A stretch of DNA of 64,000 nt from Candidatus Bathyarchaeota archaeon (GCA_963826715.1 CAWGYA010000002.1:32001-96000), one strand, 5' to 3'. Positions 5,183-59,703 are shown, counted from the first letter of the stretch. Program-made: numbers and translations. The notes: generated by a model from the letters alone, not told the origin.

Positions 5183-5202
5183 GGCTGGTGTGTTGGTTGT
5201 AA
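5183..5202 (-). repeat. att site: displaced 3' fragment of rnpB
   Basis: 19/20 identical to 10492-10511, the 3' P1 strand of RNase P RNA. Confidence 0.85.
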
Positions 5203-5284
5203 TTCCACTCCTGTGGAGATATCTCCCGCACCTCTTCCCTTTTTTCATGCTATGGCAACTTAGGGCTTCTGCTGTGCCTAAAAA

Positions 5285-6232
5285 ATGGCATCCCTTCGAG
5301 GCTTCCTCAAAGACTACCTACGACAAAACTTCTCCGTCGATGAAATTGTTGAGAAATACAAAGAATGGGTTTCCGAAAACACCTACATGATACTCTCCAA
5401 ATGGAATAATAAAAAATGGAAAAATGACGTTTTCGCTGTCAAATGCTCCAAACGTGGAAATGATATCTATCGCTGGCGAGTAAAAAGCAGATTTGTAGGT
5501 CTGAGTCATAAAGCAGAGGATTTAGTTTTTTTCAACCCTAAAGACAGAAGTAACGATAAAACTACGTGCGCCCTTTGGACTACACTAACCTATGATACTA
5601 AACTCTGCTCATACAAAGAAGCATGGGAACAAATAGGCATAGAATTTAACGCATTCATGGCTTATGTTAGACGTAATTTTGGAAAGGTTTCCTGTTGCCG
5701 AGTGTTTGAATCCTTCGAGAATGGCTATCCACATATTCATTGTATCTTGCTCTTTTCACAATACACTTTTCAAGTGTTTAGGGATGCTAAAGGTCAATTC
5801 AGAGTGCATGAGAAGGATACTATTGCTAAAGGCTGGCATAGCAACGTTGACGTAAAAGCCATGAGTTCCCTTGCTGGCGGTTTCTCATATCTCAAAAAGT
5901 ACCTGCTAAAAGGCATTGACGCTGAAAACGCTGATTCTAAAGGCTTAAAGACATTGGCTCTCTGTTGGATTTACCGAAAAAGAGCCTTTGCCGTAAGTGG
6001 AACTTTCCGTAAGGCGTTGTCCGACTTGATTACTGATTTGCATAACTCAAACAAACCCACAACACAAGTTACTCTTTTAGGCGAAATAATCCCTGAAGAA
6101 CATTTCTATTTACTCGGTTTCGCCTCAGCTCAGGAACTACAAATAGACAAAAATATTTGGTTCACTATTTTAAATAGTAAACAGTTGACTTTGCTGAATG
6201 ATTGTTTAAAGAAGACATATTATGCTAAGTGA
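5285..6232 (+). CDS. HUH rolling-circle replication initiator (Rep, YxxKY two-tyrosine type)
   Basis: Motif I WTTLTY, motif II GYPHIHCIL, motif III YLKKYLLK. Confidence 0.88.
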   Translation: MASLRGFLKDYLRQNFSVDEIVEKYKEWVSENTYMILSKWNNKKWKNDVFAVKCSKRGNDIYRWRVKSRFVGLSHKAEDLVFFNPKDRSNDKTTCALWTTLTYDTKLCSYKEAWEQIGIEFNAFMAYVRRNFGKVSCCRVFESFENGYPHIHCILLFSQYTFQVFRDAKGQFRVHEKDTIAKGWHSNVDVKAMSSLAGGFSYLKKYLLKGIDAENADSKGLKTLALCWIYRKRAFAVSGTFRKALSDLITDLHNSNKPTTQVTLLGEIIPEEHFYLLGFASAQELQIDKNIWFTILNSKQLTLLNDCLKKTYYAK

Positions 6233-6367
6233 AAAAAATAAAAACAAAATTTAAAAAATAAACCACTGATAGAATACATATAAGAAGCATTCAATAGATT
6301 TTTAATTCTTTATGGTCAACAGCAACAGATTCTTCAGAAACTTAAATAAATATACTTGTTGTAGACT

Positions 6368-7024
6368 ATGGTTGCAATCGATGAAGGTTATTCTATGGCT
6401 CAAGTAATTAAAGCTCAACCCATGGACATGTCCCTTAATTCAATCTGGATGTTAGATCCCGAGTATAAGGGTATCCGCCAATCTTTAGAAAGTAAAGGAT
6501 ATACATTAAAAGAAGAATCAAGAGGCATCTTGACTATAATTGCATCCAAAGGTACAGTAGAAATATTTGTGAATCTGCAAAGGCGTGTATTGGGTATTGG
6601 TAGCGAAACTTCGTCTAAAGATATGCTTGCAGCATATGACGACTTGGATCAAACCTTTACTGATATCGGTATGGAACCTTCTAATCTAATGTTTATTGAG
6701 TTTATAGGCAATTTTATAGTAGAATCCCCTGTAAGTCCAATAGAGACACTGAAAGGTCTAAAATTTGAAAATGATTTATTAATGAAAATAGGTGTAATTT
6801 TAGAAAAAGATGTTGCAAATGTCGGGATAAATCTTACTCTGAAGGAAGCTAATCCTACTGGATCCAATTGGTTGCATATGGTAATTGAACCACTATATCC
6901 AAGCCCTAATAAAAAATATCGTGTTAGAACGATATGTAGAGGCGACAAAGAAGAAGTACTAAAATTTGTTAAAAATATTGAGAAAAGACTGCCAAGAATA
7001 ATTGAAAAAATTGAGAGGAAATAA
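6368..7024 (+). CDS. Hypothetical cargo protein, first gene of a three-gene operon
   Basis: 218-aa ORF, AT-rich; next gene starts 3 bp after its stop. Confidence 0.7.
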   Translation: MVAIDEGYSMAQVIKAQPMDMSLNSIWMLDPEYKGIRQSLESKGYTLKEESRGILTIIASKGTVEIFVNLQRRVLGIGSETSSKDMLAAYDDLDQTFTDIGMEPSNLMFIEFIGNFIVESPVSPIETLKGLKFENDLLMKIGVILEKDVANVGINLTLKEANPTGSNWLHMVIEPLYPSPNKKYRVRTICRGDKEEVLKFVKNIEKRLPRIIEKIERK

Positions 7025-7027
7025 ATT

Positions 7028-7585
7028 ATGGCTCTTTCTGAAGAAAGCACAGGTTTTAGTTTATACGATTGTTCATATTTAACCGAAAGAGATATCGCTT
7101 CTTCTCAGCCAGATTTTTACAAAGAGAGACAATCTTTGGAGCAAAAACCTGAAAAGCTAATAAATATTCTACAAACGCATGAACCGATTTCTGTTGTAAG
7201 TAGAGTTGAAAATTTGCTGTCAAGTGCTGCCGCAAGTGACTACCCACTTAGCCTAAATACTAAACCAATTTATGAAATTTCAGAAGATGCTAATACTTAC
7301 ATTAGTAGACAGAAAAATTTTTCTAAATATGAAAAAGAAATTACGAAAATATCTTGTTGCATATCTGAATTTTTAACCAAGGAAGGTATTTCATCAAAGA
7401 TCACAGTGAGTCTCTTTTCTGATCCTGAATATTCAAACTGGATTGAACCAAGAATCCAAATCGGGGTTAGACAGGAAACTCTACAGAAAACTTATGCCCT
7501 TTTTAATGAACTATTAGAATACTCATTTGTAGGAATATCAAAAAAAACATTAAAAAAGATCGTCGTTACTATTGATAGCCAATAA
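7028..7585 (+). CDS. Hypothetical cargo protein, putative antitoxin partner of the downstream HEPN protein
   Basis: 185-aa ORF abutting the HEPN gene; C-terminal domain contains SLFSDPE. Function inferred from context only. Confidence 0.55.
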   Translation: MALSEESTGFSLYDCSYLTERDIASSQPDFYKERQSLEQKPEKLINILQTHEPISVVSRVENLLSSAAASDYPLSLNTKPIYEISEDANTYISRQKNFSKYEKEITKISCCISEFLTKEGISSKITVSLFSDPEYSNWIEPRIQIGVRQETLQKTYALFNELLEYSFVGISKKTLKKIVVTIDSQ

Positions 7586-58178: not shown

Positions 58179-58781
58179 ATGGCGAGCAATAAATCAAAAG
58201 AATATATAGTAAAGACTTTAACCAAAAACGATACATTACCTTCACTACAAAAAGCGATTGTCACCTATATGGCTGATAACGAGCCTAAAACAATCCGTCA
58301 ATTATCAAAAGGTCTTTCAAAAGATTACTCAGCGACATACACTTCTTTTAAGAGTCTAGAGAAGAAAAAATTAGTATCGAAAACAACTGTAAAGCGTTAT
58401 CGTGAGCAAGATTTCGATTGTTACTGGTTGACCGATGAAGGTATGATAATGGCGTTAATGGAAGGTGCTGACGCTGACAAGTTACTTGCGCAAATAAAAA
58501 CTCTAAATCCTGATGCAGAAATTACCCATTGCTTCTTACAGGTAATCCCCTTGTTCGACCCTGTTATAGTGCGAACCGCTTATTCATACGTAAAAGGAAA
58601 AGGGACACTTGGATTTAGTGAAGTTGCACAGATTATTCTTTCAGGGACAGCAGAAGCTATGGATATAGAAACGGGAAAGAGAATTGCAACTATACTTAAG
58701 CAGTATCCAGAACAATATGCTAAATTGAAGTATGTTGTCCAAGAAATGATAAAGACACTTAGCCAGTTAATCGAAGAATAG
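58179..58781 (+). CDS. Winged-helix (MarR-like) regulator of element 2
   Basis: KTIRQLSK.L.KDYSATY..FKSLEKKKLV...YWLTDEG; likely start ATG 58179; divergent from Rep. Confidence 0.78.
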   Translation: MASNKSKEYIVKTLTKNDTLPSLQKAIVTYMADNEPKTIRQLSKGLSKDYSATYTSFKSLEKKKLVSKTTVKRYREQDFDCYWLTDEGMIMALMEGADADKLLAQIKTLNPDAEITHCFLQVIPLFDPVIVRTAYSYVKGKGTLGFSEVAQIILSGTAEAMDIETGKRIATILKQYPEQYAKLKYVVQEMIKTLSQLIEE

Positions 58782-58819
58782 CCAAAAAAGTGAACGGGTT
58801 CTTAGAGAGAAATCTGGAT

Positions 58820-58849
58820 GCGAGCAACCACAAGGGTTGCCGCCGACTA
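58820..58849. repeat. 30-bp hairpin motif identical (inverted) to 5113-5142
   Basis: GCGAGCAACCACAAGGGTTGCCGCCGACTA, 38 bp after the wHTH stop codon. Confidence 0.95.
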
Positions 58850-58938
58850 TACACCTAAATCCTTCCTCTGTCTAAGAGAATCAGGTTACTATTGAGGAAA
58901 ACACCTCAATAACCTGACACGAGTTCTCTTAATCGTGC

Positions 58939-59232
58939 TTAGAGTGGTCTTAGGTAGATAGCTAATTGATCTTTTGTTACATTAAGAGTTATTCCATTTT
59001 CTGTGCAGCATAAATCGCCTTTTTGTAACGCAGAAATTGCCAATGTGTTTCTTGGAAGATTGAACATCGCTGGAGTTGCGCCAAGGATTTCTTTACTAGC
59101 TTCCTTTGTTAACTCGATTTCAAGGTGCGTTATTTTCCACTCCTCTTTATCTATAACTATTTCTTTCACTTTTCCAACCACAAAACCGTTAGCTCCAGTT
59201 ACAATTTGGTCAACTAATTGATTAAATCTCAT
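58939..59232 (-). CDS. PRC-barrel domain protein (inside element 2)
   Basis: V.GANG..VGKVKEIVID...WKITHLEI pattern. Confidence 0.75.
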   Translation of the reverse strand: MRFNQLVDQIVTGANGFVVGKVKEIVIDKEEWKITHLEIELTKEASKEILGATPAMFNLPRNTLAISALQKGDLCCTENGITLNVTKDQLAIYLRPL

Positions 59233-59660
59233 TTAAAATCAAATCCAACACATATATTACGATTGTTTTCTTATAAAGAGTTTGATAGCCAAGTTAAAAC
59301 AAACGTTTGTTTTTTTAATATTCAACAAAATCCCAAATGAGACAAAAATTTATGGAGGAAATGATTACGTAGATAATTTCGTCCGCAGTAATAATAGGAC
59401 TCCCCCATATCACAGTATTTCTAAGTGTGGCGGTCATAGCTAATGTCATAATGACTCCAAAGATCGCCTCAGACGAAAAACAGAACTACCCAAAATAAGC
59501 CTAGAGCCCCAAAAAACATCCTTATTATGTTAAGTAACGTAGAACAATTAAAATTTTGTAGCTCCCTCAGCAATACAACAAACAGCTAAAGGCTTATAAA
59601 TAGAAACACACAATAAGACAAACCAGTAATTTAGTCTCAGAAAATTACTTTGCCCTAAGG

Positions 59661-59703
59661 CTGGGACGGCGACATCATCCCCCGATGAATAACGCACCGT
59701 CCC
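59661..59703. repeat. Right att site of element 2 with dyad symmetry
   Basis: 23-bp core, 11 variable bp, then CACCGTCCC; same spacing as the left copy. Confidence 0.85.

What the first reader, a model, noticed from the sequence alone, without database searches (positions are those of the whole stretch)
5183..59703. A family of small archaeal Int + HUH-Rep elements that target non-tRNA ncRNA genes
Seen: two independent ~5-kb elements (5183-10511 and 54563-59683) share one parts list. Each has homologous tyrosine integrases, an HUH Rep, a wHTH regulator at a divergent promoter, AT-rich cargo, GC-rich hairpins and exact or near-exact att direct repeats. No capsid or conjugation genes were recognised. 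Established: characterised archaeal integrative elements (SSV, pNOB8, SNJ2 types) mostly use tRNA genes. Inference: this is an integrative rolling-circle plasmid/satellite family that has retargeted to other conserved structural RNA genes (RNase P RNA, box C/D sRNA) and carries defence-like cargo.
Basis: partly seen in the sequence, partly recalled or inferred. Interest (0 to 1): 0.92.

Follow-up and report, generated by a model that had tools for sequence, protein, structure and literature searches.

The report
Small archaeal plasmids inserted in RNA genes
Two 5-kb integrative plasmid-like elements of a Bathyarchaeia genome sit not in tRNA genes but in the end of the RNase P RNA gene and the start of a small rRNA-methylation guide RNA gene, widening the known target range of archaeal integrases.

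Summary
Element 1 (5183-10511) is bounded by a 20-nt repeat with one mismatch. The right copy overlaps the last 15 nt of an archaeal RNase P RNA gene (Rfam, 170 bits). Contigs from two metagenome studies join 5192 to 10502 and skip exactly 5309 bp, so the empty site exists in nature.

Element 2 (54563-59683) is bounded by an exact 23-nt repeat. This repeat is the 5' end of a conserved gene of about 66 nt with box C/D sRNA architecture. Its conserved guide pairs with the P-loop of the organism's own 23S rRNA. Three related genomes show the uninterrupted site.

Both sites are hotspots in related genomes, with arrays of elements. The integrases are homologous (27% identity). In a tree, Int1 sits among tRNA-targeting paralogues, and RNase P is used by two integrase lineages.

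Rep1 is a Pfam-supported rolling-circle Rep. "Rep2" is a different family with an invariant HUH-like motif and only indirect support. A related 5.6-kb contig carries Int, an attP made of a tRNA-Ser 3' fragment, and Rep next to each other, which is the free-plasmid arrangement.

The defence-cargo claim is weak: one HEPN-like lead. The element type is already known. The RNA-gene targets appear to be new. No circle junction or RNA evidence was obtained.

The parts
5183..5202 (.). attL of element 1: displaced 3'-end fragment of the RNase P RNA gene, carrying the attB-type G at 5192
5285..6232 (+). Rep1, rolling-circle replication initiator (HUH PHIHC, YLKKY)
   Evidence: PF23343 at 30.9 bits, cut-off 27.8. 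723 homologues, many also with PF01446; some are named rolling-circle Rep of Bathyarchaeia. H150, H152, Y202 and Y206 are invariant.
6368..7024 (+). 218-aa protein of unknown function (cargo)
   Evidence: no hit in Pfam, PHROGs, NCBIfam or PADLOC
7028..7585 (+). 185-aa protein of unknown function, abutting the next gene (possible two-gene cassette)
   Evidence: weak CARF-like PADLOC hit at 4e-4
7586..8032 (+). 148-aa HEPN-like protein (lead only)
   Evidence: phrog_5176 at 8e-15, unknown function. 19 of 30 named Atlas look-alikes carry PF05168 HEPN, score 0.93.
8154..8193 (.). GC-rich hairpin repeat of element 1
   Evidence: copies near the decayed Rep1 paralogue at C2:298693 and C2:301361; loose contig ends at 8154 and 8193
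8264..8983 (-). winged-helix (HxlR-like) regulator, divergent from Int1
   Evidence: PF01638 at 7.5e-5, above the cut-off
9315..10463 (+). Int1, tyrosine integrase with an N-terminal zinc ribbon
   Evidence: PF00589 at 7e-18; XerA-like at 1.5e-22, below the equivalog cut-off; tree
10492..10511 (.). attR of element 1, overlapping the 3' end of the RNase P RNA gene; A at 10501 comes from attP
10497..10795 (-). archaeal RNase P RNA gene (target of element 1)
   Evidence: RF00373 at 170.2 bits, full model 1-288
54520..54585 (-). box C/D-type sRNA gene of about 66 nt (target of element 2). In RNA sense: GGGGG, box C AUGAUGU, 12-nt guide, D' CUGA, C' GAUGAAG, variable guide, D CAGA, CCCC.
54563..54585 (.). 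attL core of element 2 (exact 23 nt; the extended 46-nt imperfect repeat is 54560-54605)
54644..55588 (+). Int2, tyrosine integrase, divergent from the sRNA gene
   Evidence: PF00589 at 5.4e-7, 30 bits, cut-off 27.1; clade of sRNA-adjacent integrases
55589..56275 (-). 228-aa protein of unknown function
56281..56658 (-). 125-aa protein of unknown function
56785..57108 (-). 107-aa protein, conserved in related elements (G010, G032)
57109..58116 (-). Rep2: Cys-rich protein with an invariant SPHFHxLGF (HUH-like) motif and invariant Y241; probable rolling-circle Rep of another family
   Evidence: Against.
58179..58781 (+). winged-helix regulator, divergent from Rep2
   Evidence: weak PadR/TrmB/HVO_A0114 hits, all below their cut-offs. 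Start read from the ORF.
58820..58849 (.). 30-nt GC-rich hairpin, identical in inverted orientation to 5113-5142
58939..59232 (-). PRC-barrel protein, recurrent at the right end of related elements
   Evidence: PF05239 at 1.3e-5; homologues in G014, L117, L119 and G002
59661..59683 (.). attR core of element 2 (extended repeat 59658-59703). To its right lies the original upstream flank of the sRNA gene.

Best explanation
Two unrelated-backbone but functionally parallel integrative plasmid-like elements (5309 bp and 5098 bp) of a Bathyarchaeia archaeon have integrated by tyrosine-integrase site-specific recombination into non-tRNA RNA genes.

Element 1 carries Rep1, three cargo genes, a wHTH gene and Int1. 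It recombined with the last ~15-20 nt of the RNase P RNA gene. Its attP supplies a replacement 3' end, as elements in tRNA genes do. The single difference turns a C-G pair of helix P1 into U.G.

Element 2 carries Int2, three small genes, Rep2, a wHTH gene and a PRC-barrel gene. It recombined with the first 23 nt of a box C/D sRNA gene: terminal stem, box C and most of the D' guide. The sRNA probably guides 2'-O-methylation in the 23S P-loop. The element supplies a new upstream region with a TATA-like box that lies between the sRNA start and the divergent int gene.

Shown:
- the repeats, the genes and the RNase P target;
- the precise empty site for element 1;
- uninterrupted sites for element 2 in relatives;
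- recurrent use of both sites;
- the episomal attP arrangement in a relative.

Inferred:
- replication as rolling-circle plasmids after excision;
- Rep2 being an HUH Rep;
- the sRNA's function and its expression from the element-borne promoter.
For: Repeats: they are unique in the genome and unlikely by chance.

Element 1 target and empty site:
- RNase P RNA scores 170 bits, and the repeat covers its 3' end. The mismatch position 10501 is a paired P1 position.
- Contigs of 697 nt (run X2) and 357 nt (run X5, a different study) join 5192 to 10502 and skip 5309 bp, with 0-1 other letters.

RNase P site in relatives: 22 loci were examined.
- Integrase homologues abut RNase P in G014, G015, G034 and G003. 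G020 has a fragment.
- 9 of 22 loci hold two or more repeat-like copies.

sRNA site in relatives: 20 loci were examined.
- An Int2 homologue lies next to the full sRNA copy in 8.
- A second partial core 1-7 kb away is present in 9.
- In G001, G002 and G015 the core runs on into the same sequence that lies right of the window's attR. These are uninterrupted sites.

Elements with matching gene order: G008 and G032 have the order of element 2 (Rep2 46% and 83% identical). In G030 an element with Rep1 at 80% identity is bounded by a 21-nt repeat at the 3' end of tRNA-Phe.

Integrase tree of 21: the sRNA clade has 100/100 support. Int1 plus G015 (100/100) lies among integrases adjacent to tRNA-Phe, Cys, Leu, Pro and Ser. 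The RNase P-adjacent integrase of G003 groups with the sRNA clade (99/98).

Episomal arrangement: L112, a whole 5642-nt contig, has wHTH, Int, a 141-nt spacer holding the 3' ~24 nt of tRNA-Ser(UGA), then Rep1. No host genes lie between them.

sRNA:
- It is conserved, with boxes and 12-nt spacers in place. Box C is the canonical AUGAUGA in other families of the order.
- The 20-nt signature is present in 78 of 151 genomes of the order. The reversed control pattern matched in none.
- The guide forms 11 contiguous pairs with the organism's own LSU at 2367-2377, in GGCUGGGGCGGCA.
- The one guide position that varies among genomes is the one left unpaired.
Against: Mobility of these two copies:
- No circle junction was seen for either element (one search shows only the skip).
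- Contigs cannot tell excision from strains that never had the element.
- No RNA run was available.

Rep2:
- No Pfam hit in any of 42 family members.
- No PDB sequence or fold match.
- No profile similarity to Rep1 (probability 4%).

sRNA:
- The guide-rRNA match alone is not significant. 180 of 500 shuffled guides reach 11 pairs and 9 reach 12.
- Box D is CAGA rather than CUGA, and box C in this genus is AUGAUGU.
- Rfam gives only sub-threshold C/D snoRNA hits (E 0.058).

Site history:
- Even the 'empty' sRNA sites carry what look like decayed remnants of earlier elements.
- The left flank of element 1 carries an element-type hairpin. Both sites are therefore layered, and the ancestral state is not certain.
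Confidence: 0.8

Rival explanations
1. Element 2's target is not an RNA gene. It is a conserved intergenic recombination hairpin or promoter region that only mimics C/D boxes.
For: - Rfam gives no hit at the gathering threshold.
- An inverted repeat, GGGACG...CGTCCC, flanks the core in host-type and element-type copies alike. It could be an integrase-binding feature.
- Guide 2 is variable within the genus.
- The rRNA complementarity is not significant on its own.
Against: - The ~66-nt unit is conserved beyond the repeat core, as far as a 3' GACAGACCCC. It is present in genomes without any adjacent integrase and in other families of the order. There it has canonical box C, D' CUGA and exact 12-nt spacers.
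- A TATA-like box sits about 27 nt upstream in every copy.
- The conserved guide positions coincide with the predicted P-loop duplex.
Confidence: 0.1
2. The two elements are immobile fossils, fixed or domesticated islands, rather than active integrative plasmids.
For: - No circular junction was found.
- The repeat of element 1 has a mismatch.
- Many related loci hold decayed integrases and remnants.
Against: - All ORFs of both elements are intact.
- Element 1 is present in one run and precisely absent in near-identical contigs of two studies.
- The mismatch is explained by an attP/attB difference outside the crossover.
- A close relative exists in attP form.
Confidence: 0.15
3. Rep2 is not a replication initiator but an IS91-like HUH transposase or another zinc-finger nuclease. 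In that case element 2 does not replicate by a rolling circle.
For: - It has many invariant cysteines.
- Atlas look-alike clusters include PF14319 Zn_Tnp_IS91 in 15-20% of their members.
- It has no Pfam Rep hit.
Against: - 25 of 30 named Atlas look-alikes carry PF01446 Rep_1.
- The gene always lies inside integrase-bounded 4-5-kb units next to a wHTH gene. It is not at IS-like termini.
- It is single-copy in this genome.
Confidence: 0.15
4. The elements are proviruses or satellites of small (ss)DNA viruses rather than plasmids.
For: - The Rep2 model matches predicted viral proteins in BFVD (best E 8.7e-8, 11 hits at or below 1e-3; names not available).
- PF23343 is named after viral ORF2/G2P Reps.
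Against: - No capsid, packaging or morphogenesis family was hit in Pfam or PHROGs.
- No relative was found in IMG/VR with Rep1 or its profile.
Confidence: 0.1

Closest known systems
Cryptic integrated elements (CIE) of Thaumarchaeota, e.g. the Int + wHTH minimal element and the RCRE-encoding NitAQ6f-E2 (PMC6563490; passages read)
   Same: They are small (a few kb). They carry a tyrosine integrase, a wHTH protein, sometimes a rolling-circle initiator, and short att repeats. They have no capsid or conjugation genes.
   Different: The targets reported there are tRNA genes (39 of 68), intergenic regions (15) and 3' ends of protein genes (14). 'RNase P' does not occur in that text. The host class here is Bathyarchaeia. 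The supplementary target table could not be opened, so some of the 'intergenic' targets may hide ncRNA genes.
pTN3-like integrases of Thermococcales, which use the 5' half of a tRNA gene (review PMC8371274; passages read)
   Same: Element 2 likewise recombines with the 5' part of an RNA gene. This leaves the restored gene next to, and divergent from, the integrase gene, so its promoter must come from the element.
   Different: The target is a C/D sRNA gene, not a tRNA gene. Membership of Int2 in the pTN3 integrase family was not tested.
Classical tRNA/tmRNA 3'-end integration (Williams 2002, as cited in the review)
   Same: Element 1 uses the 3' end of a stable, structured, essential RNA gene and restores it from attP. 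Paralogous integrases in the same genome use the 3' ends of tRNA-Cys, Pro, Leu and Ser.
   Different: The RNA is RNase P RNA. My searches of the open-access library found no report of that gene as an att site.
Eukaryotic U31/snR67 box C/D snoRNAs (Rfam RF01285, RF01177)
   Same: Sub-threshold Rfam alignments place box C and a near-identical guide (GUCGCC..CCAGUCU) in register. Both would pair with the LSU P-loop; the target assignment of U31/snR67 is recalled, not tested.
   Different: Scores are far below gathering (20.4 against 55 bits). The archaeal RNA is shorter, with C'/D' boxes 12 nt apart. Homology is not established.

Membership tests
Tyrosine recombinase / phage integrase (PF00589) | Catalytic domain profile match above the curated cut-off | tested here: met
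   Int1 65.4 bits and Int2 30.0 bits, against a cut-off of 27.1
Tyrosine recombinase / phage integrase (PF00589) | Catalytic Arg, HxxR box, His/Trp and the tyrosine nucleophile | tested here: inconclusive
   Read from the pairwise alignment. Int1 has R (FRIGEL), HSMRH and LGH...VY. Int2 has R (SRPIEL), YDFRR (first His replaced by Tyr) and LGH...KY. No reference alignment was made.
SSV-type 'suicidal' integrases | att site inside the integrase ORF, with the gene split on integration | tested here: not met
   Both int ORFs are intact and the repeats lie outside them
HUH rolling-circle Rep (PF23343 / PF01446): Rep1 | Profile match, HUH motif, catalytic Tyr motif | tested here: met
   PF23343 at 30.9 bits, cut-off 27.8. 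Homologues also carry PF01446. H150, H152, Y202 and Y206 are invariant in 16 sequences.
HUH rolling-circle Rep: Rep2 | Profile or structural match to a known Rep | tested here: inconclusive
   - No Pfam hit in 0 of 42 members.
- No PDB hit.
- hhalign against Rep1 gives probability 4%.
- BFVD matches down to 8.7e-8, but unnamed.
- 25 of 30 named Atlas look-alikes carry Rep_1.
HUH rolling-circle Rep: Rep2 | Invariant His-hydrophobic-His and a conserved Tyr | tested here: met
   H182, H184 and Y241 are invariant in 42 sequences
Archaeal RNase P RNA (RF00373) | Covariance-model match over the full model | tested here: met
   170.2 bits against a gathering score of 84, model positions 1-288
Archaeal box C/D sRNA | Box C, D', C', D in order, with 12-nt guides and a short terminal stem | tested here: met
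   In this genus box C is AUGAUGU. Box D is CAGA throughout.
Archaeal box C/D sRNA | Guide complementary to rRNA/tRNA, with the target at the fifth pair from box D' | tested here: inconclusive
   11 contiguous pairs with the organism's own LSU at 2367-2377. The fifth position falls on the second G of GGGG in the P-loop. Shuffled guides reach 11 pairs in 180 of 500.
Archaeal box C/D sRNA | Expressed ~60-nt RNA bound by L7Ae/Nop5/fibrillarin | not testable with these tools
   No RNA run holds the region
Integrative plasmid / cryptic integrated element | Bounded by att direct repeats, with a precise empty site elsewhere | tested here: met
   Element 1: joint 5192 to 10502 in two studies. Element 2: uninterrupted sites in G001, G002 and G015.
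Integrative plasmid / cryptic integrated element | Free circular form carrying attP | tested here: inconclusive
   Not seen for these two elements. The related whole contig L112 has Int, attP (tRNA-Ser fragment) and Rep contiguous, but it has no terminal overlap to prove circularity.
Known anti-phage defence systems (PADLOC) | Profile match of cargo proteins | tested here: not met
   Of 8 proteins, only two weak hits (4e-4 CARF-like and 7e-3 PtuA-like)

The most novel reading that the evidence does not exclude
Bathyarchaeial integrases treat any stable structured RNA gene as a landing pad. At the C/D sRNA site they act as promoter donors. The upstream region of this P-loop methylation guide looks element-derived in all 21 full copies I aligned (window plus 20 from relatives). 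It has the same TATA-like box and the same anti-guide inverted repeat, and decayed int-like starts lie beside 'empty' sites. If so, transcription of a ribosome-modification guide has been captured by a bidirectional integrase promoter. It would also follow that 'intergenic' att sites in other archaea mark undiscovered ncRNA genes.
Probability: 0.25. Interest if true: 0.75.

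Novelty: new variant of a known kind. Interest (0 to 1): 0.62.

Why it matters
- It extends the target range of archaeal site-specific integrases from tRNA genes to two other classes of essential structured RNA genes, and shows that the switch happened inside a tRNA-targeting integrase family. That bears on how integrase specificity evolves.
- att sites can serve as pointers to unannotated ncRNA genes. Here one pointed to a conserved C/D sRNA that Rfam misses.
- It defines compact (5-kb) Int + Rep + wHTH replicons with known attB sites in Bathyarchaeia. 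This group is abundant, almost entirely uncultured and has no genetic tools. Such elements are natural starting points for shuttle or integration vectors.
- It raises a testable question: does insertion affect RNase P RNA 3' processing, or expression of a P-loop methylation guide?

Tried and rejected
- Rfam at permissive E-values found nothing at the attR of element 2 and only sub-threshold snoRNA hits at attL.
- BLASTP and hhalign found no link between Rep1 and Rep2.
- For Rep2, the Pfam scan of 42 family members, the PDB sequence profile and the PDB fold search gave nothing usable. The BFVD matches have no names in the tables at hand.
- Rep1 and its profile found no relative in IMG/VR.
- Of 8 metagenome contigs found with Rep1, none had a terminal overlap. 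One (L084) repeats the window's attL junction.
- PADLOC, PHROGs and NCBIfam did not name the cargo.
- I tried to fix the E. coli numbering of the predicted methylation site through the E. coli collection. This returned only two odd 23S-only 'plasmid' records at 73-75% identity, so the G2251 equivalence stays a recollection.
- Guide 2 of the other families pairs best (10 pairs) with LSU 2713, which is no better than shuffles.
- The synteny test for an empty RNase P site in other species failed, because the flanking genes are not adjacent to RNase P elsewhere. The 17 nt left of attL recur next to RNase P in G023 and in contig L084, and I could not decide whether they are host flank or the end of an older element.
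- No RNA holder was listed for the region. Reads were laid on element 1, so element 2 was not tested in reads.
- Supplementary tables of PMC6563490, which list the integration targets, could not be opened and may hold ncRNA-overlapping 'intergenic' sites.
- Literature searches for RNase P RNA, rnpB or box C/D sRNA genes as att sites were. Passages were read. None reported such a target. Subscription journals are not covered.

Full report
**Observation**

The window is part of contig C2 of a 2.64-Mb, 8-contig genome.

- The repeat finder gives a 20-nt direct repeat with one mismatch at 5183-5202 and 10492-10511.
- It gives a 46-nt, 85% repeat at 54560-54605 and 59658-59703. The exact core of this repeat is 23 nt, at 54563-54585 and 59661-59683.
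- BLAST of the four junctions against the whole genome finds each repeat only as that pair.
- In 300 shuffles of each region, a repeat of equal quality arose 2 times (element 1) and 0 times (element 2).
The span also includes about 44 kb of ordinary chromosome between the two elements.

**Gene content**

Element 1:

- Rep1 (5285-6232) matches PF23343 above its cut-off.
- Three ORFs follow with no family match. One of them (7586-8032) matches phrog_5176, and 19 of its 30 named Atlas look-alikes are HEPN clusters.
- An HxlR-type winged-helix gene lies on the other strand.
- Int1 (9315-10463) matches PF00589 at 7e-18 and has an N-terminal zinc ribbon.

Element 2:

- Int2 (54644-55588) matches PF00589 at 30 bits, cut-off 27.1.
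- Three small ORFs follow.
- A 335-aa Cys-rich protein comes next, here called Rep2.
- A wHTH gene lies divergent from Rep2, followed by a PRC-barrel gene.

Comparisons:

- The integrases are homologous: 27% identity over 296 columns, E 9e-23.
- The two 'Reps' are not detectably related, by BLASTP or by profile-profile comparison.
- No capsid, packaging or conjugation family was hit.
- PADLOC gave only two weak hits among 8 proteins.

**Target of element 1**

- Rfam finds a full-length archaeal RNase P RNA at 10497-10795 on the minus strand, at 170 bits. The right-hand repeat covers its last 15 nt plus 5 nt beyond.
- In the Rfam alignment, the repeat's single mismatch (10501) is a paired position of helix P1.
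- Laying Logan contigs of four metagenome runs on 3500-12500 gave one joint. A 697-nt contig of run X2 and a 357-nt contig of run X5, from a different study, join 5192 to 10502 and skip 5309 bp, with 0-1 other letters. This is the precise empty site.
- The empty site carries G at the mismatch position. So the A at 10501 came from the element's attP, and the crossover lay in the right-hand 10 nt.
- As a result, the RNase P RNA of this genome ends in element-derived sequence in which a C-G pair became U.G.
- Run X1 holds contigs of the element itself. No circle junction was reported.

**The RNase P site in relatives**

- A DNA search of 60 relatives, 36 of them in the same genus, shows RNase P matches that mostly begin at the left edge of the repeat. 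It also shows integrase-plus-RNase-P matches in G015, G014, G034 and G012.
- I fetched 20 loci and added 2 already held. Integrase homologues abut the RNase P 3' end in G014, G015, G034 and G003, with a fragment in G020.
- 9 of the 22 loci have two or more repeat-like copies at four mismatches or fewer. Two of these look like chance.
- G003 has an array. It reads RNase P, then an integrase, then a Rep2 homologue (41%), then a 25-nt partial copy 4.5 kb away, then an Int1 fragment, then a third copy 11 kb away.
- A more distant MAG (L122) also has an Int1-like gene (58%) beside RNase P.

**Target of element 2**

- The left repeat lies in a stretch of about 70 nt that is conserved across the genus and, more weakly, in other families of the order.
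- Read on the minus strand it is GGGGG-AUGAUGU-(12 nt)-CUGA-(8 nt)-GAUGAAG-(variable 12-13 nt)-GACAGA-CCCC.
- In five genomes of other families it has the canonical box C AUGAUGA, a 12-nt guide, D' CUGA, C' AUGAAGA, a conserved second 12-nt guide, and CAGA-CCCC.
- Every one of the 21 aligned copies has a TATA-like box about 27 nt upstream.
- The 20-nt box C plus guide signature occurs in 78 of 151 genomes drawn from the order, and in 62 of the 105 of high quality. Mostly there is one copy, but about ten genomes have two. The reversed control pattern matched in none.
- The conserved guide forms 11 contiguous pairs (9 Watson-Crick, 2 G.U) with the organism's own 23S rRNA at 2367-2377. The context there is GGCAGUUCGGCUGGGGCGGCACGCCC.
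- The fifth pair from box D' falls on the second G of GGGG.
- From memory, this is the P-loop, and the position equals E. coli G2251, which is 2'-O-methylated in all domains. I could not verify the numbering.
- The complementarity alone is not significant. Of 500 shuffled guides, 180 reach 11 pairs and 9 reach 12.
- Two things add weight. The only guide position that varies among genomes is the one left unpaired. And Rfam's sub-threshold hits are to U31/snR67-type C/D snoRNAs with a near-identical guide in register.
- I put the C/D sRNA reading at about 0.8.

**Geometry of element 2**

- The 23-nt core is the 5' end of the sRNA: terminal stem, box C and most of the D' guide.
- The element lies upstream of the gene. 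The complete sRNA at attL therefore has an element-borne upstream region.
- The original upstream region now sits right of attR, in front of a 23-nt stub that reads into the element towards the PRC-barrel gene.
- The int gene starts about 60 nt from the sRNA start, on the other strand, with one AT-rich box between them.
- That this box serves both genes is an inference. The review of archaeal tyrosine recombinases describes the same logic for pTN3-like integrases, which use the 5' half of tRNA genes so that the restored gene is expressed from the integrase promoter (passages read).

**The sRNA site in relatives**

Among 20 fetched loci:

- An Int2 homologue lies next to the full sRNA copy in 8. 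It is intact in G004, G008 (83%) and G010 (72%), and partial or broken in G003, G019, G023, G026 and G029.
- A second, partial core lies 1-7 kb away in 9. It has a conserved element-side arm, attactttgccctaaggct.
- 11 loci have a single core.
- In G001, G002 and G015 the core continues into acgcaccgtccccgactaaaaagccttgggttcaa, the sequence found right of the window's attR. These are uninterrupted sites relative to element 2.
- The ORFs that follow in those three are 13-35 codons long. Even those sites may carry old remnants.
- G008 and the 4.8-kb contig of G032 repeat the gene order of element 2, with Rep2 at 46% and 83% identity.
- The G010 element carries a homologue of the 348-aa gene that lies right of element 2 in the window (61379-62425). 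That flank may be a remnant of another element.

**Family relations**

- The genome holds about 12 full-length paralogues of Int1.
- Those with identifiable neighbours lie at the 3' ends of tRNA-Cys, tRNA-Pro, tRNA-Leu and tRNA-Ser. One more has a 35-nt repeat that reads as a tRNA 3' end.
- In G030, an element with Rep1 at 80% identity, a wHTH gene and an Int1 homologue at 47% is bounded by a 21-nt repeat ending in the CCA end of tRNA-Phe.
- A maximum-likelihood tree was built of 21 full-length integrases. These are all the ORFs of at least 230 aa in the 55 sources scanned that matched Int1 or Int2 at 1e-8. Fragments were left out.
  - It separates an sRNA-site clade (5 rows, 100/100), with the RNase P-adjacent integrase of G003 as sister (99/98).
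  - A second clade of 15 has Int1 plus its G015 orthologue (100/100) lying among tRNA-adjacent integrases.
- RNase P is thus used by two integrase lineages, and 'retargeting from tRNA genes' is a reasonable reading for Int1. The tree is midpoint-rooted, so direction is not proven.

**Replication and lifestyle**

- Rep1 has 723 homologues at E no higher than 1e-3. Nearly all of the 120 listed carry PF23343 and many also carry PF01446. The few named ones are 'rolling circle replication-associated protein' or 'protein rep' of Bathyarchaeia/Thermoproteota.
- A scan of species-representative genomes found 32 loci, mostly in records titled Candidatus Bathyarchaeia or Bathyarchaeota.
- One of them, L112, is a whole 5642-nt contig. 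It holds wHTH (minus strand), then Int (44% to Int1), then a 141-nt spacer, then Rep1 (59%), then 2.7 kb of other genes.
- The spacer contains the 3' ~24 nt of a tRNA-Ser(UGA) gene found in 17 of 19 genomes of another Bathyarchaeia genus.
- The spacer length matches the sum of the Int-to-attR and attL-to-Rep distances of element 1 (131 nt).
- This is the attP arrangement expected of the excised plasmid. A junction between tandem integrated copies would look the same, and the contig has no terminal overlap.
- Rep2 belongs to a large family with no Pfam name: 852 representatives at E no higher than 1e-3.
  - H182, H184 (SPHFHxLGF), Y241 and ten cysteines are invariant in it.
  - An AlphaFold model has mean pLDDT 86.5.
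  - The model matches nothing in the PDB, but it matches 11 unnamed viral proteins in BFVD at E no higher than 1e-3.
  - 25 of 30 named Atlas look-alikes carry Rep_1, and some carry the IS91 zinc-binding domain.
- I take Rep2 as a probable HUH Rep, at about 0.65.

**Comparison with what is known**

- Small cryptic integrated elements with Int, wHTH and sometimes a rolling-circle initiator are described in Thaumarchaeota. Their targets are tRNA genes, intergenic regions and 3' ends of protein genes (passages read).
- The 2021 review of archaeal tyrosine recombinases lists tRNA genes, intergenic and protein-coding targets. It contains no occurrence of 'RNase P', 'sRNA' or 'non-coding RNA'.
- Five full-text searches found no report of these targets. 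Two hits that held 'RNase P RNA gene' were unrelated.
- The element type is therefore known. The targets, the 5'-end promoter-replacing geometry at an sRNA gene, and the hotspot behaviour in Bathyarchaeia appear to be new, within the limits of an open-access library and closed supplements.

**Verdict**

Novelty: a new variant of a known kind. Interest is 0.62: it would surprise a specialist moderately, and it gives concrete att sites and replicons for a lineage without genetic tools.

Noticed in passing
window 5113-5142 and 58820-58849: A 30-nt GC-rich hairpin is 100% identical, in inverted orientation, just outside element 1 (41 nt left of attL) and inside element 2. These are the only two copies in the genome. 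Similar copies lie near elements at the sRNA site in G001, G002, G005, G007, G010 and G030. Metagenome contigs break at its edges. It may be an origin or terminator module, and it hints that the left flank of element 1 is an older remnant.
   Followed up: partly
window 8154-8193; G000:C2:298304-301400: The 40-nt GC-rich hairpin of element 1 recurs beside a decayed Rep1 paralogue (6 stop codons) about 260 kb away on the same contig. This is a degraded second copy of an element 1-type element.
   Followed up: partly
window 59704-62425: The 348-aa gene at 61379-62425, right of element 2, has a 53%-identical homologue inside the integrase-bounded element of G010, and homologues beside the sRNA site in G014 and G015. 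The flank may be a remnant of a third element. It has no family match.
   Followed up: partly
window 54586-54605 and 59684-59703, and all related copies: Right of the core every copy, host-type or element-type, keeps CGTCCC(AG) about 20 nt away. This forms an inverted repeat with GGGACG of the core. In RNA sense it is an 'anti-guide' upstream of the sRNA start. It may be an integrase-binding arm or a regulatory hairpin; I have no explanation for it.
   Followed up: no
window 7028-8032: The abutting 185-aa and 148-aa genes look like a two-gene cassette. The second is HEPN-like by language-model look-alikes only. It may be a toxin-antitoxin or stabilisation module.
   Followed up: partly
G000 genome (C2, C5, C7, C8): There are about 12 full-length paralogues of the integrase. 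Other repeat pairs: 35 nt (a tRNA 3' end) 7.5 kb apart at C2:257729/265285, 25 nt at tRNA-Leu about 22 kb apart on C8, and 57 nt 17 kb apart at C8:589451/606482. Together they make a large integrated mobilome.
   Followed up: partly
window 10796-11286, compared with relatives: In this genome the 408-aa gene right of RNase P lies about 0.5 kb from its 5' end. In G002, G005, G021, G029, G030 and G035 its homologue is 24-46 kb from RNase P on the same contig. This is a rearrangement or a large insertion on the 5' side.
   Followed up: no
L112 (whole 5642-nt contig from the genome-contig scan): This plasmid-like contig has an archaeal tRNA-Ser attP and Bathyarchaeia-type Int and Rep, yet it is filed in a MAG titled as a bacterium. 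It is probably mis-binned.
   Followed up: no
L092 (G052) 3942 and 9410: An 18-nt direct repeat overlaps the 3' end of an Int1-like gene, with an integrase fragment at the other end. It may be an element inserted into another element's integrase gene, or a tandem array.
   Followed up: no
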